From: Patescibacteria group bacterium
GTDB taxonomy: Bacteria; Patescibacteriota; Minisyncoccia; Minisyncoccales; PWPS01
Assembly: GCA_051745165.1 (NCBI GenBank)
Contig: JBNJDU010000002.1
Coordinates: 5,479 to 69,478 of the forward strand
Length of the DNA stretch: 64,000 nucleotides
Reading direction: 5' to 3'
The position numbers and the translations under genes are program-made. Numbering within the stretch: position 1 is the first letter of the stretch; the number at the start of each line of letters is the position of its first letter. This document shows, piece after piece, positions 1,089-61,741 of this stretch. Below the pieces are notes generated by a model, which searched no databases, was not told the DNA's origin, and saw only the letters and a list, made by a program, of their open reading frames with translations.

Positions 1089-1155
1089 AAATTTGCTTTA
1101 TGATTTTTATAAGCATCTTCCTTATTAAATTTTACCACTCTAAAATTTAATAATC

Positions 1156-1196
1156 AAAACTCAGCTAAATGCTGGGTGTTTTATATGGCTCCGCTT
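1156..1196. repeat. 38-bp repeat copy 2 (aaaactcagctaaatgctgggtgttttatatggctccgc)
   Basis: 36/38 identical to copy 1. Immediately followed by a 9-bp perfect inverted repeat (gcttagtag...ctactaagc, 1195-1272) enclosing ~60 nt. Confidence 0.6.
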
Positions 1197-1284
1197 AGTA
1201 GACCAGTTTAGAATATTTGATTGGGGTAAAATAGAAGCAGAAGTAGAATTTTTTCAAACGCTACTAAGCTAGTTTAATTTATTT

Positions 1285-2925
1285 TTACCACTGGAAAATC
1301 CTTAAAAAGAAAGTTTTTATGGAATTGAATATTCTTACAATAAAAATTTCTCTCTCTTTTTCTTCGCTTGTTTTTTCCGTTATTTCTCCTCTTTGCTTTG
1401 GTTGGTTATCTGTTATTATTTTCTCCTCTTTTTCTTCTCCTTTATCATCTTTTTCGCCTTCTTTAGCTTCTACTAATCTTCCATCCTTTTCCTCTTTTTC
1501 TTCTCCGTTATTTTCATATTCTTCACTTTCTACTAACTCTTTATTCTCACTATTTTTGTTACTCTTACCATCTCCACTTTTTTCTTTCATAGTAAAATTT
1601 ACACTTTTACTTGATTTTTCCACCTCAAAACTGCCTTTATAATCTTCATAATTTTCTAATTTAGCAATAAACCAATATTTTCCAGTTTCAAAATTTTCCT
1701 CAACTTCACCATCTAAGCTAGTAGTTATTTCATTAACTTTTCCTGTAAAGTCTTCATAGGAATAAATTTCAATAGAAACACCCTCTAAACCATTTTCCTC
1801 ACTAAAAATCAGGGGGTATTTCTTTTTTTGGAATTCCGCCAAAATAGAGTAATTTCCTTTTATAGCAATGGTTGTATCTTCTAGATTAGGATCAGAAATA
1901 TTATCCACATCACCATTCCAGCCAATAAATTTATAACCCGGTTTAGGCTTTACCTTTAGTTCAATTTCATCTCCCCAGTTGTAATTAAATATTCCTTCTC
2001 CCGGATTAACTATATTTCCACTAGTTCCCGAATTTAATTCTAATTTATGCTTAGTTTCTTCAACAGTAATAGTAGTTGTATAACCAAGTTTTTCAGCTAT
2101 TTGATTAGCTTCATCCTCGTTAAGATTTCCACTGATCTGTATTTGTCCCCCGGAAATTTCTTCTTGAATAGTTGCTCTTTGAATTCTCTCTTCATTTAAA
2201 TAAATAGCAATCGACTTTCCAATATTTTCTTTAGTTAATTCTCGTAAAATTTCCGATCCTTGATTATTAAGTTTAATATGAATTACAGCACGATTAGTCA
2301 TCTCGTTAATATATGGTTCTGCATTGACTATATGCTTTTCATCTAAATTAGTAGAAGTAAAAATGCCTTCAAATGCTATTTCCCAATTATTTATCTCTTC
2401 ATCTAATACTGACTTTTGTTCTTCTGTAATATTTTCAATATCATTTATACTTAAAAGTTCTTTAATTTCTTCCTTTTTAGAATTAATTTTCTCAACTTCT
2501 TCGTCCCTTTTCTCTACTTTAAATTCTAAAGAAATATCTTCAACATCTCTTTTATCAAAAGTATATTTATATTCTTCATCTTTATAAGCTCTGAATTTAA
2601 ACCCAACTATATAATCACCAGGCTCTGTAAATTTAAAATTCCACTTAAATTCCCAACCTCTTCTAGGTTTTTCTATTTTTTTCTTTTTCATAAACTCCTC
2701 TTCAATAGAACCTTGCTTTTCCAAAATTTTAATTAACGGTTCAAATTGCCATTTACTTTCACCTTTATTTTCATCTTCAAGCTCTAAAAAAACTGGGACT
2801 TCTATTTTTTGACCTTGGTTTATAATATCAGGAAATTCCATACTAATACTTTTCTCTACACCAGCAAAAGCTGTTAGTGGGAACAAAAAAGATAGCAGGA
2901 AAATTATTATTTTATTTAAAGACAT
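1285..2925 (-). CDS. Secreted surface protein with signal peptide and a Listeria-Bacteroides (Flg_new-type) repeat; acidic, Lys-rich C-terminus
   Basis: N-terminal signal peptide [21 protein letters not shown]. The motif KPKPGYKFIGWNGDVDN...ILAEF matches the bacterial surface-protein repeat consensus. Confidence 0.55.
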   Translation of the reverse strand: MSLNKIIIFLLSFLFPLTAFAGVEKSISMEFPDIINQGQKIEVPVFLELEDENKGESKWQFEPLIKILEKQGSIEEEFMKKKKIEKPRRGWEFKWNFKFTEPGDYIVGFKFRAYKDEEYKYTFDKRDVEDISLEFKVEKRDEEVEKINSKKEEIKELLSINDIENITEEQKSVLDEEINNWEIAFEGIFTSTNLDEKHIVNAEPYINEMTNRAVIHIKLNNQGSEILRELTKENIGKSIAIYLNEERIQRATIQEEISGGQIQISGNLNEDEANQIAEKLGYTTTITVEETKHKLELNSGTSGNIVNPGEGIFNYNWGDEIELKVKPKPGYKFIGWNGDVDNISDPNLEDTTIAIKGNYSILAEFQKKKYPLIFSEENGLEGVSIEIYSYEDFTGKVNEITTSLDGEVEENFETGKYWFIAKLENYEDYKGSFEVEKSSKSVNFTMKEKSGDGKSNKNSENKELVESEEYENNGEEKEEKDGRLVEAKEGEKDDKGEEKEEKIITDNQPKQRGEITEKTSEEKEREIFIVRIFNSIKTFFLRIFQW

Positions 2926-2946
2926 AAATCTCTCTTTCTTTATTTT

Positions 2947-3858
2947 TTAATATCCAACAGCTTCCGCGCCATATTTAGCTTGCTGACGTGTAAACCCATC
3001 ATATTCGAGTTGTTCAATCAATCCTTCTCTAGAAAATGAAGTGTAATTTAAGTAATCTTCAGCACTTTTTGCTGCCTGCTTATTCCAATCAGCTCCGCAG
3101 TTTTCTGCCCCATACACAGCTTCTTTGTGTGTAAACCCATCATATTCGAGTTGTTCAATCAATCCTTCTCTAGAAAATGAAGTGTAATTTAAGTAATCTT
3201 CAGCACTTCTTAATGCATTCTTTTCACCTAACGTTGTATTGTCTGACTCTGGCTTTGATTCACAAACATTATTTGTGCATTTATACCCATCCGAGCAATT
3301 TCCGTGATCATATACTATTTCACAACTTTCAGTTTCTTCACTAAGCCCGACACACTTTTCTCCCCCGTAAGCAGGTTTAGGATCATCACAAGTTCTAGTT
3401 CTTATTTTCTCTCCCTCAACTCTACTTTCCCCACATTCTAAATCAGGAGGGTTGATTTGACATTCACTCCATTTACTCCATCTACTCCAACCGCCATCAA
3501 TTGGTTTAGGCTTCTCTGGCTCTGATTCAGATTCCTCTTCTATTTTTGTTGTATCTGTTTGTGTCGGCTGCTCTACCTCCTTTACCTCCTCTGTTATTGA
3601 TTCTTCCCGAGATTCTTTATTTTCCACTACATCAGATTCTGATTTAGGAACATCAAGTTCAGGATCTACTTTTTCGGTTGTTTCTGTAGTTATTCCAAAT
3701 AAAACAAAAAATACAATAAATGCTCCACCAAATAATAAACTTGTCTTTTTTCTGGTAACCTTTCCTTTAATAAAGCGTTCAAAGGAAGATGGTTTAATAA
3801 GTCCATAAATTAAAGATCCTAATGAAAGAAGGATTAGAAATAAAAATAAATCATCCAT
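2947..3858 (-). CDS. Membrane-anchored protein (2 TM) with a thrombospondin type-1-like repeat (WSRWSKWSEC...CGES...IRTRTC..PKPAYGGEKCVG) and two tandem Ltp-family (phage superinfection-exclusion lipoprotein, PF07553-like) repeats
   Basis: The tryptophan/cysteine spacing matches the TSR consensus WSxWSxWSxC...CG...RxRxC..PxP..GGxxCxG. The C-terminus has two 47-aa repeats (SAEDYLNYTSFSREGLIEQLEYDGFT...). The underlying DNA is a 141-bp-period tandem repeat. Confidence 0.7.
   Translation of the reverse strand: MDDLFLFLILLSLGSLIYGLIKPSSFERFIKGKVTRKKTSLLFGGAFIVFFVLFGITTETTEKVDPELDVPKSESDVVENKESREESITEEVKEVEQPTQTDTTKIEEESESEPEKPKPIDGGWSRWSKWSECQINPPDLECGESRVEGEKIRTRTCDDPKPAYGGEKCVGLSEETESCEIVYDHGNCSDGYKCTNNVCESKPESDNTTLGEKNALRSAEDYLNYTSFSREGLIEQLEYDGFTHKEAVYGAENCGADWNKQAAKSAEDYLNYTSFSREGLIEQLEYDGFTRQQAKYGAEAVGY
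2988..3221. repeat. Tandem DNA repeat, period 141 bp, 2 copies (~93-bp near-identical core) inside CDS 2947..3858; encodes the duplicated Ltp-like module
   Basis: gtgtaaacccatcatattcgagttgttcaatcaatccttctctagaaaatgaagtgtaatttaagtaatcttcagcactt occurs at 2988 and again at 3129. Confidence 0.8.
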
Positions 3859-3977
3859 AATTTCTCTTTCTTATATTATTTTTAATAATTTCACTACTTT
3901 TCTTATTTAACTATACCACAAAGCAAAATCCAGCTAAATGCTGGGATAAATAAAGAATATTTATCTTAAAATACGGA

Positions 3978-4199
3978 TTAAAAAGTGAACTTATCTGAGG
4001 AATTTAAGTTTTCTTCTCTCTTGATCAGTTGACATAGGGCCTTCTCCCTGGCTTCTAAATCCCTCGGATCTTCCATATCTATCGAAGATCTGTTGTACTT
4101 TATCAGTAAACGCCGAGCTTTCTTCTGCGAAACTCCTAGATATTTGGCCACCCTTTTGTGTCTTCCTTTTAGAGATAGTTGGGCATCTTTCTGAGTCAT
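3978..4199 (-). CDS. Small HTH DNA-binding protein (Fis/IS3-OrfA-like helix-turn-helix; VAKYLGVSQKKARRLLIKY)
   Basis: 73-aa ORF from the track; the HTH motif resembles Fis-type/transposase HTHs. Could be a regulator or a recombination directionality factor of the island. Confidence 0.45.
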   Translation of the reverse strand: MTQKDAQLSLKGRHKRVAKYLGVSQKKARRLLIKYNRSSIDMEDPRDLEAREKALCQLIKREENLNSSDKFTF

Positions 4200-4210
4200 A
4201 ATCTTTAAAT

Positions 4211-4360
4211 TTATTTTTTATTTTTCCTTTTCTCTTTTTTCTTCAAGCCTTCTTTTAAACCTTTCACTATCTTCTCTGTGAACTTTGTCTTTGATTTCTG
4301 ATTTCCTGAAGAGTTTTTTGTAGGTGTTGAGTTAGATTTTTTATTCTTTTTGCTATTCAT
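4211..4360 (-). CDS. Possible small basic protein (49 aa, MNSKKNKKSNSTPTKNSSGNQKSKTKFTEKIVKGLKEGLKKKEKRKNKK), immediately upstream of the HTH gene
   Basis: Hand-translated from the minus strand. Not in the ORF track (short). Low complexity, so it may be non-coding. Confidence 0.2.
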   Translation of the reverse strand: MNSKKNKKSNSTPTKNSSGNQKSKTKFTEKIVKGLKEGLKKKEKRKNKK

Positions 4361-4461
4361 AAATTTTAATTAAATAACATATTTATTATGAGTTTTTTCG
4401 TCTTATAAAAAAGGGAAGCTAAAAGGTATTTTATTAGGAAAGTATTGCAATCAAAACAATC

Positions 4462-5226
4462 TTATAATTCAATTGGTTGCCGTATAGGTACACCCTCTAG
4501 TTCAATAAATTTATCTTTCCAATCCTGACTTCTCATCTCGACTTTTTTGAGTTTTGCATCTTTGGGTATTTCATATGTTGCTTTCTGGTAATTAGTTAAT
4601 CCTGGAGCTATTGTTTCTGTATTAACAAATGTTTGGTCTTCTTGCTTATTAAATTTTCTTCCTTCATCATCTATTAGCTGTCCCAACGACCAACTAACTA
4701 ATATTTCTTCTTTTGTTTTGTTTTTTAATCCGATTTTTATCACCATAAGCTTTCCCTCAGCCCATAATCTATCTTCTCTTTTTATTTTAATAGAATTAAT
4801 TTCAATTTCTTTGCCTAAATTGAACCTATTAATTCCCGTCACTGTTTTTGAAGCTCTTTCTGTTTTATTTTCTAAATAGTCGACTCCTATTGTTGTTCCA
4901 GTTAAAAAAAATAAAGTTAAAACTAAGATAATTATTTTTTTAAATGGCAGAAGTTTGGAACTTTTCTCTTTTCCATACGCAATATAAAGAATAATTCGAT
5001 AATAAATCACGCTTAAGATTAGATATAGTAAAACAGAAAAAGATAAAGAACTCAAGGTTGAAACAAAAAAACTTTCACCACTTGAAGTAGCCACGATTAA
5101 TATAGCGATGAAAATAATTACATCCGAAATATAAATAAGTGACTTTGCCAGTCTATGCCACCATTTATTTTCTAATAAGCGTTCCTCTGCTTTGTTTTTA
5201 TTATTTTCTTCTTCCATCTTTTTCAT
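4462..5226 (-). CDS. Membrane protein (2 TM) with a C-terminal extracytoplasmic beta-rich domain (DUF4352-like)
   Basis: The ORF track gives a hydrophobic N-terminal region followed by a soluble domain. The domain assignment is from memory and weak. Confidence 0.45.
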   Translation of the reverse strand: MKKMEEENNKNKAEERLLENKWWHRLAKSLIYISDVIIFIAILIVATSSGESFFVSTLSSLSFSVLLYLILSVIYYRIILYIAYGKEKSSKLLPFKKIIILVLTLFFLTGTTIGVDYLENKTERASKTVTGINRFNLGKEIEINSIKIKREDRLWAEGKLMVIKIGLKNKTKEEILVSWSLGQLIDDEGRKFNKQEDQTFVNTETIAPGLTNYQKATYEIPKDAKLKKVEMRSQDWKDKFIELEGVPIRQPIEL

Positions 5227-5413
5227 TGTTGGTTTTATTGTTTTTCTTTATTACTTAACTATACCACAAGATAAAACTTTATCTAAGTTATAAGATAATG
5301 GGTAGTTTTTTCGTCTTATAAAAAGGGGGTTAATACCGCTACTATGGTTGCCTATTAATTTACTAAATTGTTGATTTTAATTAGAATAAAATAAGATACT
5401 TAATAAAAATGTA

Positions 5414-6172
5414 ATGAATTCATCTAAAAATCAATCAAAAGAAAAACTTTTAACTTACCTTGATCACTTTATAGAGTCAGATTTTTTTCAAAAAATGGTA
5501 AGAGAAACAAGAGAAGAACTAAACATCCCCAAAAAGGGACTTAATAAATCAAAAGACGAACTTACAAGCTGCTCTTGGGATAAGTATATTTTATATATTC
5601 CGGAAGAATTAAAAGGCGATAAAGGGGAGATATTAAGATTTGTTAACAGTCAAATGGGGAGAGCTTATGAAAAATTTCCTGTAAATGATATCCGGATAAC
5701 TGCTATTTTTACTGTATATATTTATTATAATTTAAAAATATATAAAATTTTAAACAAAACAGACAATATCTGTTCTATTGAGGATATTAAGCAAACAATT
5801 CAGGAAAGAGAAGGATTAAAATTAAATTCTAAGGAAATAAATAGAATGATTGGAACTGATACATACCCTGTAATTTTAAAAATAAACCCTTCTGCAAGTC
5901 AGCGAGATATAGTTTCTTATATTAAAGATAATTGGAAAATTATTAAATATCATCTTGATAAGTATGAAAATAAATCAAAATTAGGAAAAATAAGATCTAG
6001 AGATCCAAAAATTAAAGAAAGAGATCGATTTATTTATAAAAATAGAGAAAAACCATATAAAGAAATAGTTTCTTTGGTTCAAAAAAAATTCCCTGAAGTA
6101 AGCGATTCGATTGATCAAGGTTCTGTTGGAAAAATAATTTCACTTGAGAGACAAAGAAGGAAAGAAGTGTAG
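5414..6172 (+). CDS. Hypothetical basic protein (252 aa), island-borne
   Basis: ORF track. No recognisable motif. Followed by a hairpin terminator at 6210-6236. Confidence 0.45.
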   Translation: MNSSKNQSKEKLLTYLDHFIESDFFQKMVRETREELNIPKKGLNKSKDELTSCSWDKYILYIPEELKGDKGEILRFVNSQMGRAYEKFPVNDIRITAIFTVYIYYNLKIYKILNKTDNICSIEDIKQTIQEREGLKLNSKEINRMIGTDTYPVILKINPSASQRDIVSYIKDNWKIIKYHLDKYENKSKLGKIRSRDPKIKERDRFIYKNREKPYKEIVSLVQKKFPEVSDSIDQGSVGKIISLERQRRKEV

Positions 6173-6209
6173 TACACTTATTTCTTATACAATTTAATAT
6201 ACGTCTTAT

Positions 6210-6236
6210 AACCTGTTATCAAGCAGGTTATTTTTT
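6210..6236 (+). terminator. Rho-independent terminator (aacctgttatcaagcaggtt + T6)
   Basis: Perfect 6-bp stem followed by a T-run, directly after the 5414..6172 stop. Confidence 0.6.
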
Positions 6237-6276
6237 ATGGCTAAAAATTAAATTAGTATTTCAACTGCCAAGAAGT

Positions 6277-6417
6277 ATGGATCTAACCAAACCTTCAATT
6301 AAAGAGCTTCAAAATATCCTCGAAAAGGATTACGGAGTTTCTTTAAACGAAAAAGAAGTTAATTCCTTTGGAGTTTTAGTCCTAAAAATTTTACAAACTA
6401 TAAGTAATAAAAAATAA
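6277..6417 (+). CDS. Possible small protein (46 aa, MDLTKPSIKELQNILEKDYGVSLNEKEVNSFGVLVLKILQTISNKK)
   Basis: Hand-translated. Its stop lies 2 nt before the next ORF start (6420). Not in the ORF track. Confidence 0.2.
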   Translation: MDLTKPSIKELQNILEKDYGVSLNEKEVNSFGVLVLKILQTISNKK

Positions 6418-6419
6418 AT

Positions 6420-6854
6420 ATGAACAATGAAGGGCCAAATAAAATTATGCTAAGGAAAGGAGTTGATAACAATCCTGAAGATGCTTTTAAAGGCTTAGAC
6501 CATCCCTCTAAAAAAACAAAAGAAAATGCTCAAAATGAAATAAAAAAGTTTACAAAAAGAAATTGGCTTGCGTACAGTCCAGACTTAGCAAAAATTCTTA
6601 ATTCTGTAAAAGCGGGAATTTTTCTCTCACAACTCATCTATTGGCACGGAAAAGGTGCTGATTCTGAAAAGTTTTACAAGACGATAAAAGAATTAAAGGA
6701 AGAAACAGAATTAAGCAAAGGAGAGCAATATAGAGCTCAAAAAATATGTGAGAAAAAAGATTTAATCGAGGTTACTTATGACAAGATTCCACCAAAGAGA
6801 CACTACAAAATTAAAATTAAAAAGATAAAAGAATTATTAAAAGGCATTGATTAG
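6420..6854 (+). CDS. Winged-helix DNA-binding protein, DnaD/phage replication-organizer-like (weak call)
   Basis: The segment GIFLSQLIYWHGKG...FYKTIKELKEETELSKGEQYRAQKICEKKDLIEV resembles replication-initiator/DnaD-type wHTH domains. No decisive motif. Confidence 0.35.
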   Translation: MNNEGPNKIMLRKGVDNNPEDAFKGLDHPSKKTKENAQNEIKKFTKRNWLAYSPDLAKILNSVKAGIFLSQLIYWHGKGADSEKFYKTIKELKEETELSKGEQYRAQKICEKKDLIEVTYDKIPPKRHYKIKIKKIKELLKGID

Positions 6855-7209
6855 TGAATGTAGGCGGTTATTATATGAATTTTATCAAGCATTTAAAGGT
6901 TTTAAAATAAGTCATATATTACAGAGATTACCTTTCATAGATTACTTACAGAGCTTTCTCTTTACAAGAGAGGATTCCGTAAATATAGACATTTACGAAA
7001 TCCAAAAATATACCTAGAAAGAAAAATTAAATAATAAAGAAATTTATTTATTTACCTTGAAGTGCTATAATAAAAGTAGACATTGCCATTATTATTTTGA
7101 GAGTAGGAAGGGGCGTTTCTGTTTTGTTCTCGAAAGAGGCAATGTCTAGCAGAAGCGTCCCTTTTTGTTTATTAGCTTGCTCTTACTATATTTATTAAAT
7201 TTTTATTTT

Positions 7210-8934
7210 ATGATTTCAAATAAAAAAGCGGACAAATATTTTATGTATTGTCGTAAATCAAGTGAATCTGAGGATCGACAAATACAATCTATAGACGCAC
7301 AAAAAAGAGAGCTTAAGAAAATAGCAAAGAAGGATAATTTGAATGTAGTGGATATATTAACTGAATCAGCTTCAGCAAAGGAGCCAGGAAGACTAGTATT
7401 TAATAATATGATTAAGAGAATAGAAGATGGAGAAGTTGATGGTTTATTAGTGTGGAAAGTTAATCGATTAGCTAGAAATGCTCGTGATGGAGGAACAGTT
7501 AAGTGGCTTTTACAAGATGGAGTAATAAAGCACATAAAAACATTTTCAGGAAATCATTACCCCGAAGATAATGCTGTTGTTTTATCTGTAGAAATGGGTA
7601 TGTCTGCACAGTACTCAAGAGATTTGAGTACTGACACGAAAAGAGGTTTACGTGAAAGATATGAGAGAGGTTATCCGAACGGACAAGCTCCCATTGGCTA
7701 TAAAAATGATTTAAGTAAAAAGCCTGGTAATAGAGGATGGAAAGTTAATGAAGATCGCTTTCCTTTAGTTAAAAAGCTTTTAAAGTTGTATTTAACAGGA
7801 GATCATTCTGTTAGTAGTCTCAAAAAGATAGCCAATGATAAGTTTAATTTAACTACTCCAGAGAGAAAGAATAAAGGAGGTAAAAAGATTTCTAGATCAT
7901 ACATTCATCATATGCTACAAAATCCAGTGTATGCAGGCTTCTTTCTTGTAAACGGCAGTAAAAGATATGAGTTAAACCCTAAAGTACCTACAATGATAAC
8001 GGAAGAAGAATATAATAAAATTCAAGATATTCTAAGCGATAAAAATAGATCTAGAACTTCCAGTTTAGAAAAAAGCTTTCCTTACAAAGAAGGTGGGAGG
8101 ATGATTTGTGGTTATTGTGGAGGGGTAGTCTCTGCAGAAAGAAAAAGCCAAGTAATTTGTTCTAATTGTAATAAAAAGTTTTCCAGGATAAGTAAAGATA
8201 AGTGCCCGAGCTGTGGAACTGAAATAAGTAAAATGGAGGATCCTACCTTTTTGGATTATAAATACTATCACTGTACTAAAAATAAAGACTCAGAGTGTCC
8301 TAGTCCGTATATAAGAGAAGAAAAGATAAATGAGGAGGTGAGCACTTTCCTTAAGAATAATTTGGAGATATCCCCTTCCTTGCGTGAATGGTGTGTTAAA
8401 AATGTAAAACAACTAGAAAAGGATAAGAGGCAACGGATTAAAAAACAAAAAGATAAATGGGAGGAAGAGTTAAAAGAAAAGGAAGAAGAGTATGACCGTC
8501 TTTTAAGAATGCAATTAAAGGAAGATTTTGATATGGATAAAGAGGATTTTAATAGACTAAAAAACGAAATAAAATCAGAAAAGAATGCTGTTAAGAGTAA
8601 ACTGAAAGAGTTAGAAAGCAATTCTGATAATATAGAAAAGAAACTAAAAAAGACACTTGATATCACTACAGGAGTTTCAAATATATTTAAAAAAGGAACC
8701 AGTGAAGAAAAGAAAGAAGTTTTATCAAAAACTGCTTCGAACTTAACTGTTAAGAAGGATGAAATCCAAATTTCAAGTCAAAACCACTTCTCTATCTTAT
8801 TGGAGGCTCTTTCGGCAGTTAAAGATGAAAACCCCTCATTCGAACCCCGAAATAGTACCCCTTTTAACGGAAAAACCGAGGTTGAAGCCTCGGCTTGTCC
8901 TGTTTTGCTCCGCGGACAGGATTCGAACCTGTGA
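7210..8934 (+). CDS. Large serine recombinase (resolvase/invertase N-terminal catalytic domain YCRKSSESEDRQ, recombinase domain, Zn-ribbon, coiled-coil), i.e. a phage-type integrase
   Basis: The ORF track frame starts at 7165, but the catalytic Ser motif and spacing favour the Met at 7210. The 3' end of the ORF reads through the tRNA-Asn terminator into the tRNA gene (overlap 8908-8934). Confidence 0.85.
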   Translation: MISNKKADKYFMYCRKSSESEDRQIQSIDAQKRELKKIAKKDNLNVVDILTESASAKEPGRLVFNNMIKRIEDGEVDGLLVWKVNRLARNARDGGTVKWLLQDGVIKHIKTFSGNHYPEDNAVVLSVEMGMSAQYSRDLSTDTKRGLRERYERGYPNGQAPIGYKNDLSKKPGNRGWKVNEDRFPLVKKLLKLYLTGDHSVSSLKKIANDKFNLTTPERKNKGGKKISRSYIHHMLQNPVYAGFFLVNGSKRYELNPKVPTMITEEEYNKIQDILSDKNRSRTSSLEKSFPYKEGGRMICGYCGGVVSAERKSQVICSNCNKKFSRISKDKCPSCGTEISKMEDPTFLDYKYYHCTKNKDSECPSPYIREEKINEEVSTFLKNNLEISPSLREWCVKNVKQLEKDKRQRIKKQKDKWEEELKEKEEEYDRLLRMQLKEDFDMDKEDFNRLKNEIKSEKNAVKSKLKELESNSDNIEKKLKKTLDITTGVSNIFKKGTSEEKKEVLSKTASNLTVKKDEIQISSQNHFSILLEALSAVKDENPSFEPRNSTPFNGKTEVEASACPVLLRGQDSNL

Positions 8935-8979
8935 CATCCTCCTTAACAGGGAGGCGTTCTACCGCTGAACTACCGCGGA
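8908..8979 (-). tRNA. tRNA-Asn (anticodon GTT)
   Basis: Cloverleaf folded by hand: acceptor TCCGCGG/CCGCGGA, anticodon loop cTGTTAa, T-loop GGTTCGAATCC. No encoded CCA. A hairpin plus T-run terminator lies 3' of it. Confidence 0.85.
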
Positions 8980-28113: not shown

Positions 28114-29790
28114 ATGTCGAAGAATGAAAAAGAAAAAGTAAAGATAACTCCGCTTGGAGGTTTAGGAGAAGTAGGAAAAAATATGACCCTTCTAGAGTAC
28201 GAAGGGCAAATCCTAATTATCGATATGGGACTTAGCTTCCCGGAAGATGAAAACCCCGGAGTTGACTATATAATTCCTAATATTTCTTACCTAAAAGGTA
28301 GAAAAGATGATATTTTAGGAGTTATATTCACTCATGGTCACTACGATCATATTGGAGCAGTTCCCTACTTTTTAAATAAGTTAGGAAACCCTCCTTTATT
28401 CGCCTCTTCACTAACAATGGGAATTATTGAAAAAAGACAGGACGATTTCCCAAATCAACCAAAGCTAAACAAGACAGTTATTGAAGATGGTTCTAAAATA
28501 GAATTAGGGCCGTTTAAGATTGAAGCCTTTCATCAAAACCACAACATTCCTCAAAATTTAGGGTACTTCATAGAAACTCCAGTTGGAAATATTTTACATA
28601 CTTCTGACTTTAAGTTTGATGAGCATCCTCAAAATGGACCGGCAACAAATTACGAAAAAATTAAAGAATTTGGAAATAGAGGAATTCACCTCATGCTTTC
28701 TGATTCTACCGGTGCAGAAGAAGAAGGTCACTCTTTGTCAGAAAAAACAATTTCGGAAAATATTGAAAAAATATTTCAAAGATCGGATGGTAGAATTATT
28801 ACCGCTACCTTCTCTTCACTAATTAACAGAGTGCAAGATATAATTGAATTGTCTGAAAAGTATGGAAGAAAGGTTATTATTGAAGGGTATGGAATGAAAA
28901 CCAATGTCGAATTGGCAATTAATTTAGGTTTAATTAAAGCAAGTAAAAACACATTTGTTGATCGCAGAAAAGCAGATAGCGTTCCACCGGAAAAAACAAC
29001 TATAATTTGTACTGGTGCACAAGGAGAAGAAAGAGCAGCTTTAATGAGAATCACACAAGGACAACACAGATTCTTTGAGTTGCAAGAGAGAGATACGGTA
29101 GTATTTTCTTCTTCAGTTATTCCCGGAAACGAAAGATCAGTCCAAAATCTTAGAGACGACATTTTAAGACAAGGAGCAGATATTTATCATTACAAAATGA
29201 TGGATATACACGCTAGTGGTCACGGATGTAGAGATGAATTAAGAGAAATGATAGAAATGGTAAAACCTAACTATCTTGTTCCTGTTCATGGACAATACTC
29301 AATGATGGTTAGACACAAGGAGTTAGCTGAAGAGACTAATATTCCGCAAAAAACAATTCTTATAGAAAATGGAGATCCGCTTGAAATGACTTCTCAAAAA
29401 GTATATAAAACAGGTGAGCAAATCAACACCAAACCGGTAATGGTTGATGGATCCGGAGTCGGAGACGTTGGCGGAGTAGTTCTTTACGACAGAAAAGAGC
29501 TTGCCGAAAGTGGAATATTCGTAGTAATTGTTGTGCTAGATAAAAAGACTAAAAAACTACAAAACTCACCAGACATTATATCCAGAGGGTTTGTTTACCT
29601 CAGAGAATCACAAGACTTATTAGCGGAAACAAGAAAAAAGACGAGAAACATTGTTAAAGAAGCCTCTAAATCAAGAAAAACTAGTAACGCAAAGCACATC
29701 AAGAAAGAAATGGAGCAAAAGATCGAAGACTTCCTTTACAGCAAAACTAGAAGAAGACCTATAGTTTTACCGGTAGTTATTGAAGTGTAG
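28114..29790 (+). CDS. rnj: Ribonuclease J (metallo-beta-lactamase/beta-CASP RNase)
   Basis: Zinc-binding motif HGHYDHIGAVPYF and C-terminal domain. Confidence 0.9.
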   Translation: MSKNEKEKVKITPLGGLGEVGKNMTLLEYEGQILIIDMGLSFPEDENPGVDYIIPNISYLKGRKDDILGVIFTHGHYDHIGAVPYFLNKLGNPPLFASSLTMGIIEKRQDDFPNQPKLNKTVIEDGSKIELGPFKIEAFHQNHNIPQNLGYFIETPVGNILHTSDFKFDEHPQNGPATNYEKIKEFGNRGIHLMLSDSTGAEEEGHSLSEKTISENIEKIFQRSDGRIITATFSSLINRVQDIIELSEKYGRKVIIEGYGMKTNVELAINLGLIKASKNTFVDRRKADSVPPEKTTIICTGAQGEERAALMRITQGQHRFFELQERDTVVFSSSVIPGNERSVQNLRDDILRQGADIYHYKMMDIHASGHGCRDELREMIEMVKPNYLVPVHGQYSMMVRHKELAEETNIPQKTILIENGDPLEMTSQKVYKTGEQINTKPVMVDGSGVGDVGGVVLYDRKELAESGIFVVIVVLDKKTKKLQNSPDIISRGFVYLRESQDLLAETRKKTRNIVKEASKSRKTSNAKHIKKEMEQKIEDFLYSKTRRRPIVLPVVIEV

Positions 29791-29796
29791 ATTTAC

Positions 29797-29931
29797 TTAA
29801 TATTACTTCTTAAGAACCACTCCTCAAGAATCGCCAGCGACGATTCGGGAGTTGTGCGCTCGTTGATTGATTTTAGCAAAGCTGAAAATCGTGCTCAATC
29901 AACTCCGCGAACTTCTAAGAAGTAATATTTA
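29797..29931 (-). repeat. Copy A of a ~135-nt conserved structured element (19-bp terminal inverted repeats aatattacttcttaagaa / ttctaagaagtaatatt); candidate ncRNA or MITE
   Basis: Its reverse complement aligns with copy B (61524-61657) and copy C (31111-31221), with covariation in three internal stems. Confidence 0.6.
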
Positions 29932-29993
29932 CGTTCACGGTTAACAAAATTAGTTAATTAAACTATAATTGATAAAAGTTTAACTAAAAAAAT

Positions 29994-30974
29994 ATGAGAA
30001 TATTCAGTGGAATTCAACCTACAGGAGGGCTTCATATCGGAAACTATTTAGGAGCTATAAAACAATGGATAGAGCTACAGGAAGAAAATGAGTGCATTTA
30101 CTCTATAGTTGATCTGCACGCCTTAACTTCTGACTACAACTCTGAAGAGTTACGAGATAAGATAATTAATACTGCTATCGTTTATCTTGCCGCCGGAATA
30201 GATCCAGAAAAGTCAACTATTTTCATCCAATCCGAAGTTAAAGAGCATACTGAATTAAGCTGGTACTTAAATACAGTAACACCAGTTGGAGAATTGGAAA
30301 GAATGACTCAATACAAGGAGAAATCCAAAAGCAAAAAGAAAAGATCTAATGCTGGTCTCTTAAATTACCCCATTTTAATGGCTGCCGATATTTTGCTTTA
30401 CGATACAGAAATCGTACCCGTTGGAGAGGATCAAATTCAACATATAGAACTGACTAGAGACATTGCTAAAAAGTTCAACAAGCAGTTTGGAAAAACATTT
30501 GAAATTCCAGAAGCAAAACTCCCTAAAAGTGGAGCAAGGATTATGAGCTTAAAAAATCCTCAAAATAAAATGTCCAAATCAGGAAAAAAGGGAAACGCTA
30601 TATCCTTATTTGACGACCCTGAAGTAATAAAGGAAAAGGTTATGTCTGCAGTAACTGATACTGACAATAAGATTAAATACGATATCAAAGATAAACCAGC
30701 AATCTCTAATTTGCTAGTTATTTACAGCGAATTCAAAGAACAATCCATTGCAGACAGTGAAAAAGAGTTAAAAGGAGATAGTTATAAACAGTTTAAAGAA
30801 AAATTAGCTGAACTCTTAATTGAATCTTTAGCTCCATTTAGAAAAAAAAGGAAAGAGCTTGAATCACGAAGAGAAGTTTATGTTGAAGAAATACTCTCAC
30901 AAGGAACTAGAAAAGCAAAATCTTACGCCTCTTCAAAAATTGTTGAAGTGCGTAGAAATATGGGGCTCATTTAA
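29994..30974 (+). CDS. trpS: Tryptophanyl-tRNA synthetase
   Basis: Class I aaRS with HIGH-like (GGLHIGNYLG) and KMSKS (KMSKSGKK) motifs. Confidence 0.92.
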   Translation: MRIFSGIQPTGGLHIGNYLGAIKQWIELQEENECIYSIVDLHALTSDYNSEELRDKIINTAIVYLAAGIDPEKSTIFIQSEVKEHTELSWYLNTVTPVGELERMTQYKEKSKSKKKRSNAGLLNYPILMAADILLYDTEIVPVGEDQIQHIELTRDIAKKFNKQFGKTFEIPEAKLPKSGARIMSLKNPQNKMSKSGKKGNAISLFDDPEVIKEKVMSAVTDTDNKIKYDIKDKPAISNLLVIYSEFKEQSIADSEKELKGDSYKQFKEKLAELLIESLAPFRKKRKELESRREVYVEEILSQGTRKAKSYASSKIVEVRRNMGLI

Positions 30975-31002
30975 TAGCTAGCTATCAGCTTTTAATAATA
31001 TA

Positions 31003-31029
31003 AAACCACTCGAATATCGAGTGGTTTTT
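31003..31029 (+). terminator. Rho-independent terminator after trpS (aaaaccactcgaatatcgagtggttttt)
   Basis: 7-bp stem plus T5; symmetric A-tract, so possibly bidirectional. Confidence 0.65.
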
Positions 31030-31063
31030 ACTATTTAAAATATTATCTAATAAACTCTTAAAA

Positions 31064-31108
31064 ATAGGTCGAACCTATCAGAAGTAGTTAAAAATAGGTT
31101 GGACCTAT
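31064..31108. promoter_or_regulatory. Two tandem palindromic sites AAAAATAGGT-N3-ACCTAT, 30 bp apart
   Basis: ATAGGTcgaACCTAT at 31064-31078 and ATAGGTtggACCTAT at 31094-31108; immediately 5' of element copy C. Confidence 0.4.
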
Positions 31109-31110
31109 TC

Positions 31111-31221
31111 TATCGGAGAGGATTTTGCATGGTCTTTTCGTTAGAAAAGAAAATCCTCGAGAGCACAGAGCCCGAATTCCCGCTGGGAATTCTTGAGGCT
31201 CGGTTCTTACAAAGAGGGTAT
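31111..31221 (+). repeat. Copy C of the conserved structured element (5' outer stem absent or replaced; 3' end overlaps the stop region of the convergent phosphohexomutase gene)
   Basis: The 3' 65 nt are ~80% identical to copy B. Hairpins aggatttt...aaaatcct and gaattcccgctgggaattc covary with B and A. Confidence 0.55.
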
Positions 31222-31230
31222 CGAGCGCAC

Positions 31231-32556
31231 TTATGATTCCTTTATCAAAGAAACAAGTTCTTCTGTTTTTTCTTCTAAAAGTTTTTTACTTTCTGCCTCC
31301 AACCTAAGTCTTACTACATCCTCTGTGTTTGATTTTCTTAAATTAAACCACCAGTTATCAAAATCAATATAAACACCGTCTAAATTAATACTAAATCCTT
31401 CCGGAAAAGCTTCTCTCGCCCTTTCTAAAGCCTTATCTTTATCATCTACCTCCATATTTATTTCTTCGCTTTGGTAATAAATCTTAAGCGGTTCAGTTAG
31501 CTCAGAGAGAGTTTTATCTACATTTCCCAAAAAGCTAATCATTTTGATGGCGATAAAAAGCCCATCATCAATGCAGTAATTATCTTTATGCATTATATGA
31601 CCAGAAAGCTCAGCCCCCATTAAACCTCCTTCATTAACTAATTTCTCTTTATAAAAAGGATTTCCTACTCTCATCATCTCTGGAATCCCTCCTGACTCAG
31701 AAACTTTTTCTGGAGTTATTTTTGAAAATCTTAAATCAAAATATACTTTTTTCTCTTTTGATTTTTTTAATTCTTTTTGAGCTAAAAGGCTAATGATTAA
31801 ATCTGGATAAACAATCTCTCCTTTTTCATCTACAAAAAAGGCTCTATCTCCATCCCCATCAAAAAACACACCTAAATCTGCTTTTTCTTCTTTCACTTTA
31901 TTGATAAGCTCTTCCATATTTTTGGGTTCTGGATTCGGTAAGTGATTAGGAAAAGCAGGATCTAAATCTTCATATAAGCTAACTACTTCTGCTTTAATAT
32001 TTTTAAATACTTCCTTGCCAGTTACAGAGGCAACACCATTTCCATAGTCGACTACTACTTTCAAGTCTTCTTTATGATCAACAAACGAGAGAATATGCGA
32101 AATATAATCTGGTAATGGATCTTTCTTCTCCACACTCCCATTACCTTTTTTAAACTTTTCTTTTTTAATTAGGTTCTTTATCTTTTTTATTCCTTTCCCA
32201 TACACTTGCAACCCATTTTCTTTAATTAGCTTTAACCCATTATATTCCGGTGGATTATGAGAAGCAGTTACCATTACTCCTCCGGAATGACTGTACTTAC
32301 AAACTGCGAAGTTTAAAAGCGGGGTTGTAGCAACTCCGATGTCAAAAACAGTAGCTCCAGAATCTATCAATCCCCTTTTAAGCTCTTTGAAAAGTGCGGG
32401 AGAAGTTTTTCGAGCATCTCTCCCAACTACAATTTCCGGATTTTCTTCATCAAGAAAAGAAACAAACCCCCTTCCTACTAAATAGGCAGTTTCTTTGTCT
32501 AATTCTTCTGGAGATAAGCCCCTTATATCGTATGTTTTAAATATTTTATCCTCCAT
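31231..32556 (-). CDS. Phosphomannomutase/phosphoglucomutase (alpha-D-phosphohexomutase family)
   Basis: Active-site TASHNPPEYNG, metal-binding DGDGDR, sugar-binding motifs. Confidence 0.85.
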   Translation of the reverse strand: MEDKIFKTYDIRGLSPEELDKETAYLVGRGFVSFLDEENPEIVVGRDARKTSPALFKELKRGLIDSGATVFDIGVATTPLLNFAVCKYSHSGGVMVTASHNPPEYNGLKLIKENGLQVYGKGIKKIKNLIKKEKFKKGNGSVEKKDPLPDYISHILSFVDHKEDLKVVVDYGNGVASVTGKEVFKNIKAEVVSLYEDLDPAFPNHLPNPEPKNMEELINKVKEEKADLGVFFDGDGDRAFFVDEKGEIVYPDLIISLLAQKELKKSKEKKVYFDLRFSKITPEKVSESGGIPEMMRVGNPFYKEKLVNEGGLMGAELSGHIMHKDNYCIDDGLFIAIKMISFLGNVDKTLSELTEPLKIYYQSEEINMEVDDKDKALERAREAFPEGFSINLDGVYIDFDNWWFNLRKSNTEDVVRLRLEAESKKLLEEKTEELVSLIKES

Positions 32557-50292: not shown

Positions 50293-50790
50293 TTAAATAG
50301 CTTCTGGGCATTCATAAGCGTTTCTTCGATTAGCCTCTACAGCAGGATCTAATTGAGTTTCTAAAGCATTACCATTACTATCAATGCAATACCAATGAGT
50401 ATCTCCTTGTTCATTAGCATTAGTGCAAAGTGCAGCCCAGGCTAAATACTTTTGGTTATCAACTTCAACTTGATATGTATTAGGTTCCGCATACCCTAAA
50501 GAATCATGCTTTGCTGCAGCACAAAGTGGAAGCTCACCAGCAATTCTATTCCAGTTCGATGATTCATTATAAGCAGTTACTCCAGTAACATTTCCTCCGT
50601 AAGTACCCCCATTATCATAATAAAACATTTCTGCACTACTTCTTACTTGAGAAAGTTCAGATTTTATTTGTGTATCATAAGCTGACTCCCTTGCTCCGCT
50701 AATTGACACAAAAGCGATACCAGAAAGAATTCCGATAATTGCTACTACAACTAAAAGTTCAATTAATGTAAAACCTTTTTGATTAGTCAT
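50293..50790 (-). CDS. pilA: Type IV major pilin paralog 2 (PilA-like)
   Basis: N-terminus MTNQKGFTLIELLVVVAIIGILSGIAFVS is identical to paralog 1; the C-terminal two-thirds is divergent. Confidence 0.85.
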   Translation of the reverse strand: MTNQKGFTLIELLVVVAIIGILSGIAFVSISGARESAYDTQIKSELSQVRSSAEMFYYDNGGTYGGNVTGVTAYNESSNWNRIAGELPLCAAAKHDSLGYAEPNTYQVEVDNQKYLAWAALCTNANEQGDTHWYCIDSNGNALETQLDPAVEANRRNAYECPEAI

Positions 50791-50792
50791 TA

Positions 50793-51251
50793 CTATGGAG
50801 TAGTAAATATATTTTCACAACTAGTTTGTGAGTCGTCTGGAGTTCCTTCATACTCACCAGCGTTACCTTCGCTATCTACACAATAATAAACCGTGCTTCC
50901 CTCAGAAGCAGCACAAAGTGGAGCCCAGGCAGCATAGGATTGCCCTTCAATACTTATCTGATATTCCTCAGCAGGATCCGTACCCTCTAATAAAGCTACA
51001 CTACACATTGGAATTTCTCCATAAATTCGGCTCCAGCCATCAGAAGAGTCGTATCCAGCATAAGTACCCCCATTATCATAATAATATTGCTCTGCGTTAC
51101 TTCTTATTTGAGAAAGTTCAGACTGAATTTGTGTATCATAAGCTGACTCCCTTGCTCCGCTAATTGACACAAAAGCGATACCAGAAAGAATTCCGATGAT
51201 TGCTACTACAACTAAAAGTTCAATTAATGTAAAACCTTTTTGATTAGTCAT
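50793..51251 (-). CDS. pilA: Type IV major pilin paralog 1 (PilA-like)
   Basis: Prepilin motif and a C-terminal Cys pair. Confidence 0.85.
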   Translation of the reverse strand: MTNQKGFTLIELLVVVAIIGILSGIAFVSISGARESAYDTQIQSELSQIRSNAEQYYYDNGGTYAGYDSSDGWSRIYGEIPMCSVALLEGTDPAEEYQISIEGQSYAAWAPLCAASEGSTVYYCVDSEGNAGEYEGTPDDSQTSCENIFTTP

Positions 51252-51317
51252 GATTATAATATTAATATTTAATCTTCTTATCTTATAACAGTATACTAAA
51301 ATTTAGTAATGAGTCAA

Positions 51318-61441: not shown

Positions 61442-61470
61442 AAAATCCGCCTATTGGCGGTTTTTATTTA
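61441..61470 (+). terminator. Rho-independent terminator after recG (aaaaatccgcc-tatt-ggcggttttt)
   Basis: 6-bp GC stem plus T5. Confidence 0.7.
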
Positions 61471-61523: not shown

Positions 61524-61657
61524 AAATACCCTCTTTGAAGAAGTCCGCGGAGCTGATTTAGCAAGGTTTTTGGCCTTGCCAAAATAAATCAGCGAGCGAA
61601 CAACCTCCGAATCACCGCTGGTGATTCTTGAGAGGTGTTTCTTCAAAAGAGGGTATT
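61524..61657 (+). repeat. Copy B of the conserved ~135-nt structured element (outer stem ataccctctttgaagaag / cttcaaaagagggtat; inner hairpins ctgatttagcaagg..ccttgc..taaatcag and gaatcaccgctggtgattc); candidate ncRNA or MITE
   Basis: Complete copy. Homologous to A (reverse complement) and C, with compensatory substitutions. It abuts the tRNA-Glu 3' end (10 nt away). Confidence 0.6.
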
Positions 61658-61666
61658 GAATGAATG

Positions 61667-61741
61667 TGACCCCGACGAGATTTGAACTCGTGTTACTAGG
61701 ATGAAAACCTAGCGTCCTGGGCCAAGCTAGACGACGGGGCC
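61667..61741 (-). tRNA. tRNA-Glu (anticodon TTC)
   Basis: Hand fold: acceptor GGCCCCG, anticodon loop tTTTCAt, T-loop GAGTTCAAATCTC. Confidence 0.8.

What the first reader, a model, noticed from the sequence alone, without database searches (positions are those of the whole stretch)
29797..29931. Copy A of the structured element sits inverted between rnj and trpS, where a T-box-like leader might be expected
The 203-bp rnj-trpS spacer is occupied by the element in the orientation opposite to both flanking genes. It has 19-bp near-perfect terminal inverted repeats (aatattacttcttaagaa ... ttctaagaagtaatatt). I looked for T-box features here, namely a specifier loop and the AATTAGGGTGGNACCGCG box, because trpS is frequently T-box regulated in Gram-positive-like lineages, and found none. 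If the element is transcribed with trpS it would add a long stable hairpin to the trpS 5' leader. If it is transcribed on its own strand it is antisense to the read-through from rnj.
Basis: partly seen in the sequence, partly recalled or inferred. Interest (0 to 1): 0.6.

Follow-up and report, generated by a model that had tools for sequence, protein, structure and literature searches.

The report
Structured mobile repeat behind gene ends
The hairpin between rnj and trpS is not a trpS leader: it is one copy of a previously undescribed ~140-base repeat, folded as a three-way junction, that a small group of ultra-small (CPR/Nealsonbacteria-like) bacteria carry directly behind gene ends and that behaves like a small mobile element.

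Summary
A 137-148 nt element fills most of the 203-nt rnj-trpS spacer, on the strand opposite to copies B (31096-31230) and C (61524-61660).

It is not a T-box and not part of the trpS leader. Rfam 15 gives no hit. A near-consensus trpS promoter (TTAACA-17-TATAAT, 29941-29969) lies downstream of the element.

The three window copies and about 20 copies from related CPR genomes and metagenomes share a three-way-junction fold. Of 52 pairs, 38 show compensatory changes and 96% of cells are paired. Junction, bulge and loop bases are invariant.

The family behaves like an insertion element:
- The rnj-trpS site is empty in at least six other related lineages and occupied only in the closest one, where a second copy is nested inside the first.
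- There are tandem and truncated copies, and contigs that break at copies.
- One end always abuts the stop codon or tRNA 3' end of a gene on the other strand (9 of 9 loci).
- One site, beside tRNA-Glu, is occupied in all four genome lineages examined (five loci).

Copies are 85-96% identical between genomes whose synonymous sites are saturated.

My best reading is a new family of structured, non-autonomous mobile repeats. The enzyme, the active strand and any host function remain unknown.

The parts
29791..29938 (-). Copy A, whole element including the boundary motifs. Read on the - strand it is 5' GTGAACGTAAAT ... TAAGTAAAT 3'.
   Evidence: CM hits at 29795-29931, 148 bits with R1 and 140 bits with R2. 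The boundary consensus comes from the flanks of 12 copies.
29799..29816 (-). P1, 3' strand of the closing stem (left terminal inverted repeat). It pairs with 29913-29929.
   Evidence: 14 perfect pairs plus 3 after a 1-nt bulge. In helix 1, 12 of 17 pairs show compensatory changes across copies.
29913..29929 (-). P1, 5' strand of the closing stem (right terminal inverted repeat).
29818..29856 (-). Arm P3: hairpin with the invariant CCGAAU ... CGCUGG ... AUUCUUGAG and bulged UU and A.
   Evidence: helix 5: 10 of 14 pairs covary
29854..29912 (-). Helix 2, the invariant GGA/GA internal loop, and arm P2 (7-nt bulge GCAyGrU and an apical hairpin). In relative L151 a second copy is nested in this arm.
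   Evidence: (helices 2-4 covary)
28114..29790 (+). rnj (RNase J). Its stop codon TAG at 29788-29790 directly abuts the element.
29941..29969 (+). trpS promoter TTAACA-17-TATAAT, downstream of the element.
   Evidence: 11 of 12 matches. It is conserved in L151, and TATAAT is present in all relatives.
29994..30974 (+). trpS
31096..31230 (+). Copy B. Its 5' part is damaged and its 3' boundary CGAGCGCAC abuts the stop codon of the PGM/PMM gene (31231-32556, -).
   Evidence: (85 bits)
31002..31028 (.). Bidirectional intrinsic terminator between trpS and copy B.
61524..61660 (+). Copy C. It lies about 5 nt from the 3' end of tRNA-Glu (61666-61741, -). This site is occupied in every related genome examined.
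61447..61460 (.). Bidirectional terminator between recG and copy C.

Best explanation
Copy A is a member of a previously undescribed family of structured interspersed repeats. The elements are about 137 nt, or about 150 nt with their boundary motifs. The family is confined to a narrow clade of Nealsonbacteria-like CPR bacteria.

Anatomy, read on the CCGAAU..CGCUGG strand:
- a 5' boundary (yy..RAAGCGAAG);
- a 15-18 bp closing stem, P1;
- a compact three-way junction;
- arm P2, entered through a short helix and an invariant GGA/GA internal loop, with a conserved 7-nt bulge AGCAUGG;
- arm P3, with CCGAAU, a CGCUGG apex and a bulged UUGA;
- a 3' boundary (YGAGYGMA) that repeats the CGAGCGCA found just after P2.

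Shown:
- The element is an insertion between the rnj stop codon and the intact trpS promoter, and it has no T-box features.
- Family members come and go at orthologous sites, nest inside one another, stack in tandem and occur as truncated copies.
- Each copy places its 3' boundary directly against the end of a gene on the opposite strand.

Inferred mechanism:
- The element is non-autonomous. An enzyme encoded elsewhere copies or moves it as a folded single strand and recognises the conserved junction, loops and boundary frame.
- One end, the 5' boundary, is fixed. The other end can stop early, giving 5' halves, or run on into flanking DNA, giving fragments of the tRNA-Glu 3' end.
- The intermediate could be DNA (rolling-circle or HUH-like one-ended transposition) or cDNA of a read-through transcript. 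This is not decided.
- The copy beside tRNA-Glu is the likely long-lived source.

Local consequence at rnj-trpS:
- rnj read-through RNA acquires a structure of about -45 kcal/mol ahead of the trpS promoter.
- trpS keeps its own promoter and a short, unstructured leader.
For: Family and fold:
- 3 window copies.
- 18 aligned copies (17 distinct): 52 pairs, 38 with changes on both sides, 96.2% of cells paired, 0 of 500 shuffles as good, and slid controls 36-50% paired.
- No Rfam match and no phage or plasmid match.

Insertion and mobility:
- The rnj-trpS site is empty in nine other syntenic loci from at least six lineages, with spacers of 35-91 nt.
- It is occupied in L151, where a second full copy (84 bits) is nested in arm P2 of the first.
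- The trpS-PGM site is occupied in the window and in L152/L153, and empty in L144 (6-nt spacer), L148/L149, L154 and L155. L146 and L150 have a 573-nt spacer there that holds a different short palindromic repeat family and no CM hit.
- Tandem copies occur in L103, L071, L115 and L158. Truncated 5' halves lie upstream of many copies.
- 5-6 copies sit at or are cut by contig ends.
- Copies at the tRNA-Glu locus are followed by fragments of the tRNA-Glu 3' end, 14 nt to at least 24 nt long.

Polarity:
- At 8 distinct protein-gene loci the stop codon lies 3-5 nt after the CM end. The genes include rnj, PGM, a GatC-like protein, an MreB-like protein, a TopA-like protein and two membrane proteins; names other than rnj and PGM are read from the translations.
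- The tRNA-Glu locus shows the same arrangement, and no copy has the opposite polarity.

Not a leader: the trpS promoter is downstream of the element.

Neighbours are housekeeping genes, and no transposase lies beside any copy.
Against: - No transposase, reverse transcriptase or longer autonomous version with the same ends was found. Only about 0.4 Mb of this clade could be inspected.
- There is no copy-specific target-site duplication. Both flanks fit a family-wide consensus instead.
- Copies are much more conserved than neutral sites. winA versus the L151 host copy is 85-89% identical, against 46-48% at four-fold sites. winB versus L103b is 86% and winC versus L007 is 90.5%, against 35-38% at four-fold sites.
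- The tRNA-Glu site is occupied in all four genome lineages examined (five loci). This is what a host-functional RNA would show.
- Horizontal spread or gene conversion could explain the conservation, but neither is shown.
- The strand that folds best is antisense to the only transcription that context guarantees. No single simple model accounts for this yet.
Confidence: 0.55

Rival explanations
1. A family of trans-acting small RNA genes. Paralogous 'types' A, B and C would each be transcribed from the CCGAAU..CGCUGG strand by their own promoter. Gain and loss would occur by ordinary duplication and deletion rather than transposition.
For: - Aptamer- or ribozyme-like conservation: about 20 invariant unpaired bases, including a GGA/GA internal loop, plus strong covariation.
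- The consensus fold is 2-11 kcal/mol more stable on this strand in 11 of 11 copies, and G-U pairs outnumber A-C by 25 to 12.
- Terminators shield the upstream side of B, C and L042.
- The types are 86-96% identical across genomes with saturated synonymous sites, and the tRNA-Glu site is always occupied.
Against: - There is no conserved promoter upstream. Copies are preceded by unrelated sequence, by half copies, or directly by another copy 5 nt away.
- No terminator or U-tract follows P1, so transcription would run antisense into the abutting gene.
- A nested copy, truncated copies and duplicated flanking tRNA fragments are not expected for plain RNA genes.
- Strict abutment to stop codons in one polarity is unexplained.
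Confidence: 0.2
2. A cis-acting RNA module in the 3' UTR or tRNA trailer of the abutting gene, read on the complementary strand. It would act as a stabiliser, a processing signal or an insulator between transcription units, as REP, BOX and ERIC elements are proposed to do. Its spread would be secondary.
For: - The complement of every copy begins 0-2 nt after a stop codon or tRNA 3' end, with no terminator in between.
- In B, C, L157 and L158 the terminator lies beyond the element, so this strand must be transcribed by read-through.
- The sequence after P1 on this strand is U-rich (YUUCGCUU, UUUUCAUUUU).
- In-situ conservation points the same way.
Against: - The terminator scan finds none at the element.
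- The base of the stem is A/U-rich.
- Relatives manage without the element at rnj-trpS and trpS-PGM.
- This strand folds less well and carries the A-C mismatches.
- A cis role does not by itself explain nested or truncated copies.
Confidence: 0.15
3. Part of the attachment site of small integrative elements that target the 3' end of tRNA-Glu. Each integration would bring a new 'element + tRNA-Glu 3' end' unit.
For: - Arrays of {element + tRNA-Glu 3' fragment} occur at or near the tRNA-Glu locus in L115 and L158, with about 430 nt of unrelated DNA between units in L158.
- The site is occupied by different subtypes in different genomes.
Against: - Copies behind rnj, PGM, the GatC-like, MreB-like and TopA-like genes and others have no tRNA fragment and no island next to them.
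- No integrase is adjacent.
- RNA-like covariation with conserved loops is not a known feature of att arm sites.
Confidence: 0.05
4. A trpS regulatory leader, either T-box-like or another attenuator.
For: Only its position upstream of trpS.
Against: - No T-box hit at E <= 10.
- The promoter lies downstream of the element.
- The element is absent from the same spacer in at least six other related lineages.
- The same element sits behind unrelated genes.
Confidence: 0.01

Closest known systems
BOX, ERIC and Correia-type structured intergenic repeats, and MITEs generally
   Same: - Size of 100-150 nt, non-coding and multi-copy.
- The ends pair into a long stem.
- Located in transcribed intergenic DNA next to gene ends.
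- Presence/absence polymorphism between relatives.
- No adjacent transposase.
   Different: - A compact three-way junction with invariant junction, bulge and loop bases.
- The stem sequences covary instead of being a fixed terminal inverted repeat.
- No copy-specific target-site duplication.
- Strict single polarity and zero-distance abutment to the preceding gene end.
- Strong conservation of individual copies across genomes with saturated synonymous sites.
REP/REPIN elements with their RAYT (HUH Y1) transposase, and IS200/IS605-derived PATEs
   Same: - A folded single strand is the likely substrate.
- Structure is conserved more than sequence in the stems.
- No target-site duplication.
- Long-term vertical persistence.
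- Similar short motifs at both borders.
   Different: - REPs are 20-40-nt simple palindromes with a GTAG head, and REPINs are symmetric doublets.
- Here the two arms are different, and there is a closing stem.
- No RAYT or TnpA gene was seen; complete genomes were not available.
IS91/IS801-family one-ended (rolling-circle) transposition and its miniature fragments
   Same: - One constant end and one variable end (truncated, or extended into flanking DNA).
- The constant end is preceded by GAAC, CAAG or one-off variants of these, which are the target tetranucleotides reported for IS801 (PMC3189936).
- No target-site duplication.
   Different: - No Y2 transposase was found.
- IS91 ends do not pair into an 18-bp stem.
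- The tetranucleotide match is part of a longer family consensus and may be coincidence.
- The truncation point (apex of P2) is not next to a ter-like motif.
SINE-like or ribozyme-bearing retroelements that rely on host read-through transcription (eukaryotic R2, retrozymes, tRNA-derived SINEs)
   Same: - No promoter of their own, and always downstream of and co-oriented with a host transcription unit.
- A source copy tied to a tRNA gene.
- Copies with a variable 5' extent and a constant 3' end (as read on the co-transcribed strand).
   Different: - Nothing like this is established in bacteria.
- No reverse transcriptase was identified.
- No poly-A or microsatellite tail.
- No known ribozyme motif on either strand.
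T-box leader (RF00230)
   Same: Only that trpS is a typical T-box-regulated gene in Firmicutes.
   Different: - No specifier loop and no T-box sequence.
- The element lies upstream of the promoter and on the opposite strand to trpS.
- The same element occurs behind unrelated genes.

Membership tests
T-box leader | Match to the T-box covariance model (Stem I, specifier loop, conserved T-box sequence, antiterminator) | tested here: not met
   cmscan of 29700-31400 on both strands at E <= 10 gives no T-box hit. The gathering-threshold scan of the whole window finds only tRNAs.
T-box leader | Lies between the promoter and the start codon of the regulated gene, on the same strand | tested here: not met
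   The promoter at 29941-29969 is downstream of the element. Relatives have a 35-69 nt spacer holding only TATAAT.
MITE | Terminal inverted repeats | tested here: met
   14 + 3 bp stem in copy A. However, the stem sequence differs between copies through compensatory changes.
MITE | Copy-specific target-site duplication | tested here: not met
   The flanks of 12 copies all fit one consensus (5' RAAGCGAAG, 3' YGAGYGMA). Within-copy matches are no better than the shared consensus explains (judged by eye, not tested statistically).
MITE | Multi-copy, with presence/absence polymorphism at orthologous sites | tested here: met
MITE | A cognate autonomous IS with the same ends | not testable with these tools
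   None was found in the window (filters-off CM; Pfam on ORFs) or in the fetched loci.
REP/REPIN | Short simple palindrome (or symmetric doublet) with a conserved tetranucleotide head, and a RAYT gene in the genome | tested here: not met
   The element is an asymmetric three-way junction of 137 nt. The presence of a RAYT gene could not be tested.
Intrinsic terminator | G+C-rich stem followed by a U-tract | tested here: not met
   The scan of 29600-31400 finds terminators at 31002-31028 but none at the element.
Retron ncRNA | Adjacent reverse-transcriptase gene | tested here: not met
   The neighbours are rnj, trpS, PGM, recG, tRNA-Glu and tsaD.
Integron attC | R''/R' core sites (RYYYAAC ... 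GTTRRRY) at the ends, and arrays of cassettes | tested here: not met
   By direct reading, the inner end of P1 is GTTCTTC / GAAGAAC. The flanking genes are syntenic housekeeping genes.
Any Rfam 15 family (including known self-cleaving ribozymes, Y RNA and 6S) | Covariance-model match | tested here: not met
IS91-type one-ended element | Constant ori end next to a GAAC/CAAG-type tetranucleotide, with a variable other end | tested here: inconclusive
   By direct reading of the 5' flanks, GAAC occurs in 5 copies, CAAG in 4 and one-off variants in the rest. Truncated and extended copies exist. No Y2 transposase was seen.

The most novel reading that the evidence does not exclude
A bacterial SINE-like or rolling-circle 'hitch-hiker' that arose from the 3' trailer of tRNA-Glu.

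- It has no promoter and is transcribed only as the tail of whatever gene it sits behind.
- It is copied through a single-stranded DNA or cDNA whose three-way-junction fold is the thing under selection. That fold forms on the strand antisense to the transcript.

This one model would reconcile four observations: the strict polarity, the constant end paired with a variable end, the transduced tRNA-Glu fragments, and the puzzle that the better-folding strand is not the transcribed one.

Alternatively, the conserved junction could be a new catalytic or protein-recruiting RNA motif.
Probability: 0.12. Interest if true: 0.85.

Novelty: new variant of a known kind. Interest (0 to 1): 0.55.

Why it matters
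CPR/Patescibacteria genomes are extremely compact. The window is about 90% coding, and many spacers hold only a promoter. Persistent 140-nt non-coding elements there therefore need an explanation.

This family combines features that are usually separate. It has RNA-motif-grade structural conservation and also the dynamics of a mobile element. It keeps a strict polarity against gene ends and has a universally occupied site beside tRNA-Glu.

It offers a tractable case for asking how small structured repeats spread and are kept in streamlined genomes. It may also reveal a new mobilising enzyme or a new structured RNA class.

Practically, the element breaks MAG assemblies in this clade, and it could be mistaken for a leader or a riboswitch.

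Tried and rejected
- **T-box or other known RNA.** Rfam at gathering threshold on the whole window and at E <= 10 on three regions gave only tRNAs and chance-level hits.
- **Phage or plasmid origin.** blastn in distant mode found no match. 21 viral contigs matched the loose 17-base pattern, but none passed the CM.
- **Loose metagenome pattern.** It returned 115 loci, nearly all chance matches. Only L042, L066, L071, L103 and L115 are real. L104 (30 bits) was left as doubtful.
- **Own promoter.** sigma-70-type scans around A, B and C are at chance level. A promoter-like TTGAGC-17-TAAAAT inside arm P2 of copy A is not conserved, because most copies have TGAAAT, which lacks the key A.
- **Terminator.** None was found at the element.
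- **Small ORF.** GGAG..AUG..UGA inside the element is rejected. The AUG is ACG, AAG or AGG in several copies, and arm lengths vary out of frame.
- **Target-site duplication.** Rejected as above.
- **Outer helix between the two boundary motifs.** At most 2-3 pairs form, and they are not conserved.
- **Associated protein.** Pfam on 49 neighbouring ORFs in the window and loci found only housekeeping genes. The one exception is a large serine recombinase at tRNA-Asn, which is unrelated to any copy.
- **Strand assignment from G-U against A-C counts.** This gave only a 2:1 preference and does not settle the strand.
- **Literature searches.** No description of such an element in CPR was found.
- **Source contig.** Exact-sequence look-ups for the window's own TrpS and TsaD returned nothing on record.

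Full report
**1. What is at 29797-29931**

The spacer between rnj and trpS is 203 nt. rnj runs from 28114 to 29790, with its TAG stop at 29788-29790 and RNase J domains. trpS runs from 29994 to 30974.

Most of the spacer is a sequence whose ends pair. There are 14 perfect pairs (29799-29812 with 29916-29929), then three more after a one-base bulge. Inside are two further hairpins.

Both strands fold far better than shuffled controls, with z = -4.7 and -5.2.

**2. It is a family with a conserved three-way-junction fold**

- The core CCGAATnnnCGCTGGnnATTCTTGAG occurs three times in the window, against none expected.
- A covariance model run without filters finds exactly three copies: C at 61524-61660 (+), A at 29795-29931 (-) and B at 31096-31214 (+, damaged at its 5' side).
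- The same core is found only in CPR genomes: a Ca. Nealsonbacteria MAG and two MAGs labelled 'uncultured Saccharibacteria'.
- It also occurs in a handful of metagenome contigs, and never in viral contigs that pass the model.
- On 18 aligned copies (17 distinct), the consensus structure has 52 pairs in five helices. 38 pairs show changes on both sides and 96.2% of cells are paired. None of 500 shuffles reaches any measure, and sliding one strand by 1-3 columns drops pairing to 36-50%.
- The unpaired bases are conserved. They include a GGA/GA internal loop at the base of arm P2, a 7-nt bulge (A)GCAUGG, a bulged UU and A in arm P3, the CGCUGG apex, and junctions of 0, 1 and 2 nt.
- Rfam 15 has nothing like it at E <= 10. 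Phage and plasmid collections have no similar DNA.

**3. It is not a trpS leader**

A promoter that matches TTGACA-17-TATAAT at 11 of 12 positions (TTAACA-17-TATAAT) lies at 29941-29969. That is downstream of the element and about 25 nt upstream of the ATG.

In syntenic loci of relatives (TrpS 74-85% identical), the GPI-rnj-trpS-PGM order is conserved. The rnj-trpS spacer there is 35-91 nt, contains the TATAAT box and little else, and has no element. This holds for L144, L146, L147, L148, L149, L150, L152/L153, L154 and L155. Several of these are near-duplicate contigs, so they represent at least six distinct lineages.

No T-box is therefore expected or present in this clade. Only rnj read-through RNA could contain the element.

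**4. It behaves as an insertion**

- The closest relative, L151 (TrpS 85%), does have the element at the same place and in the same orientation, with the same stem and the same flanks. A second full copy (84 bits) is nested in arm P2 of the first.
- The trpS-PGM spacer holds a copy in the window (B) and in L152/L153, of another subtype and at the contig end. It is 6 nt long in L144 and holds just a terminator in L148.
- Copies occur in tandem in L103, L071, L115 and L158. Many are preceded by a truncated 5' half that stops near the apex of P2 and runs straight into the next copy's boundary. The nested copy in L151 suggests how such halves arise: insertion into P2, then deletion between the homologous 3' parts. 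This last step is inference.
- Several copies sit at or are cut by contig ends, as repeats do in assemblies.

**5. Position and polarity**

Read on the CCGAAU strand, the element ends with a conserved YGAGYGMA motif. In 8 distinct protein-gene loci, this motif is followed at once by the reverse complement of a stop codon. The genes include rnj, PGM, a GatC-like protein, an MreB-like protein, a TopA-like protein and two membrane proteins; names other than rnj and PGM are my reading of the translations, not Pfam results. At one further locus it is followed by the 3' end of tRNA-Glu. The opposite polarity was never seen.

On the other side lies one of three things: the promoter of the next co-directional gene (as at rnj-trpS), a bidirectional terminator (B, C, L042), or older half copies.

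In genomes this compact, the gap between a stop codon and the next promoter is almost the only place an insertion can survive. The window is about 90% coding. That explains the abutment but not the polarity.

**6. The tRNA-Glu site**

The arrangement recG-[element]-tRNA-Glu-tsaD is found in the window and in L103, L002, L157 and L158. That is every genome lineage for which the locus was recovered, with TsaD 69-81% identical. The subtype differs, however: winC versus L103b is 70% identical.

winB is 86% identical to L103b, and winC is 90.5% identical to a copy elsewhere in a PWHM01-like genome.

Extra copies in L115 and L158 are each followed by a fragment resembling the tRNA-Glu 3' end, 14 nt to at least 24 nt long. 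The unit that gets copied can therefore run on into the flank of the tRNA-Glu copy. This marks that copy as a likely source.

**7. Conservation**

- Between the window and L151, four-fold degenerate sites of rnj and trpS are 46-48% identical, which is saturated. The retained parts of copy A are 85-89% identical, like the functional promoter next to it at 87%.
- Between L001 and L071, the element is 96% identical, and third codon positions of the adjacent gatC-like gene are 67% identical.

Either individual copies are under purifying selection where they sit, or they are replaced or homogenised by horizontal spread. I cannot separate these two.

**8. Which strand?**

- For the CCGAAU strand: G-U pairs outnumber A-C mismatches 25 to 12 on it. 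The consensus fold is 2-11 kcal/mol more stable on it than on its complement in 11 of 11 copies. The invariant GGA/GA loop is a familiar RNA motif only on this strand (general RNA-structure knowledge).
- For the complement: no conserved promoter precedes the copies on the CCGAAU strand. Context guarantees transcription only of the complement, as the tail of the abutting gene or tRNA. No terminator separates gene and element in B, C, L157 or L158, and the terminator lies beyond the element.

This conflict is unresolved. It would disappear if the selected fold belongs to a single-stranded DNA intermediate, either a displaced strand or a cDNA.

**9. Comparison with known systems**

The element works most like the structured intergenic repeats of other bacteria (BOX, ERIC, Correia, REP/REPIN, MITEs). 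It fails the MITE test for a copy-specific target-site duplication and the REP test for a simple palindrome. No cognate enzyme is known.

The geometry of one fixed end and one variable end, and the GAAC/CAAG-like tetranucleotides before the fixed end, recall one-ended transposition of IS91/IS801 (PMC3189936). No such transposase was seen, and the resemblance may be coincidental.

The element is not a T-box, terminator, retron RNA, attC site or any Rfam family.

**10. Verdict**

- The T-box/leader framing is not supported.
- The insertion-polymorphism idea is supported.
- The element is a new, well-supported structured repeat family with mobile-element behaviour. Its mechanism is unknown, and it may have a host function that centres on tRNA-Glu.
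- Interest is moderate (0.55). It would be high if the single-strand or retro model, or a new functional RNA, were confirmed.

Noticed in passing
window 657-8979: A 589-aa large serine recombinase (7165-8934, +) has a 3' end that overlaps tRNA-Asn (8907-8979, -). Before it lie ORFs without Pfam hits and an Ltp-type lipoprotein gene. This looks like an integrated element at tRNA-Asn. No copy of the structured repeat is there.
   Followed up: partly
window 31063-31078 and 31093-31108; L153 3053-3072 and 3096-3115: Pairs of mini-hairpins (AATAGGTnnnACCTAT) lie just 5' of the trpS-downstream copy, in both the window and a relative. In the window they replace the 5' strand of copy B's closing stem.
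   Followed up: partly
L146/L150 trpS-PGM spacer; L151 6560-6800; L158 8660-8920; L103 about 1900-2080: Relatives carry a different family of short palindromic repeats (GTCATTCCCGCGAAAGCGGGAATC, GATTCCCAGTCAAGCTGGGAATGAC and similar). These fill long spacers. They were not seen in the window's spacers inspected here.
   Followed up: no
window 50593-50796 and 51054-51257; 2962-3081 and 3103-3222: A 204-nt direct repeat (92% identical) corresponds to two adjacent small ORFs next to genes with type IV pilus Pfam hits. A 120-nt repeat (88% identical) lies inside the Ltp lipoprotein gene.
   Followed up: no
all copies, e.g. window 29854-29861 and 29791-29799 (- strand): The motif CGAGCGCA that follows arm P2 inside the element recurs as the 3' boundary after the closing stem. 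The 5' boundary AAGCGAAG resembles the internal UCGCGGAG. The element is therefore framed twice by the same sequence pair.
   Followed up: partly
L115 8538-8600 and 8808-8870; L158 9194-9260: Degenerate tRNA-like remnants follow the extra element copies. They begin like the tRNA-Glu 3' end and then diverge. A further T-arm-like fragment (GGTTCGAATCCCC) lies at the end of L115.
   Followed up: partly
window 29941-29969; L144, L146 and L148 spacers: The two promoters with a readable -35 box (window and L151) read TTAACA-17-TATAAT. Several spacers hold only the -10 box, so the -35 region would lie inside the upstream gene. In L144 the convergent trpS-PGM spacer is only 6 nt.
   Followed up: no
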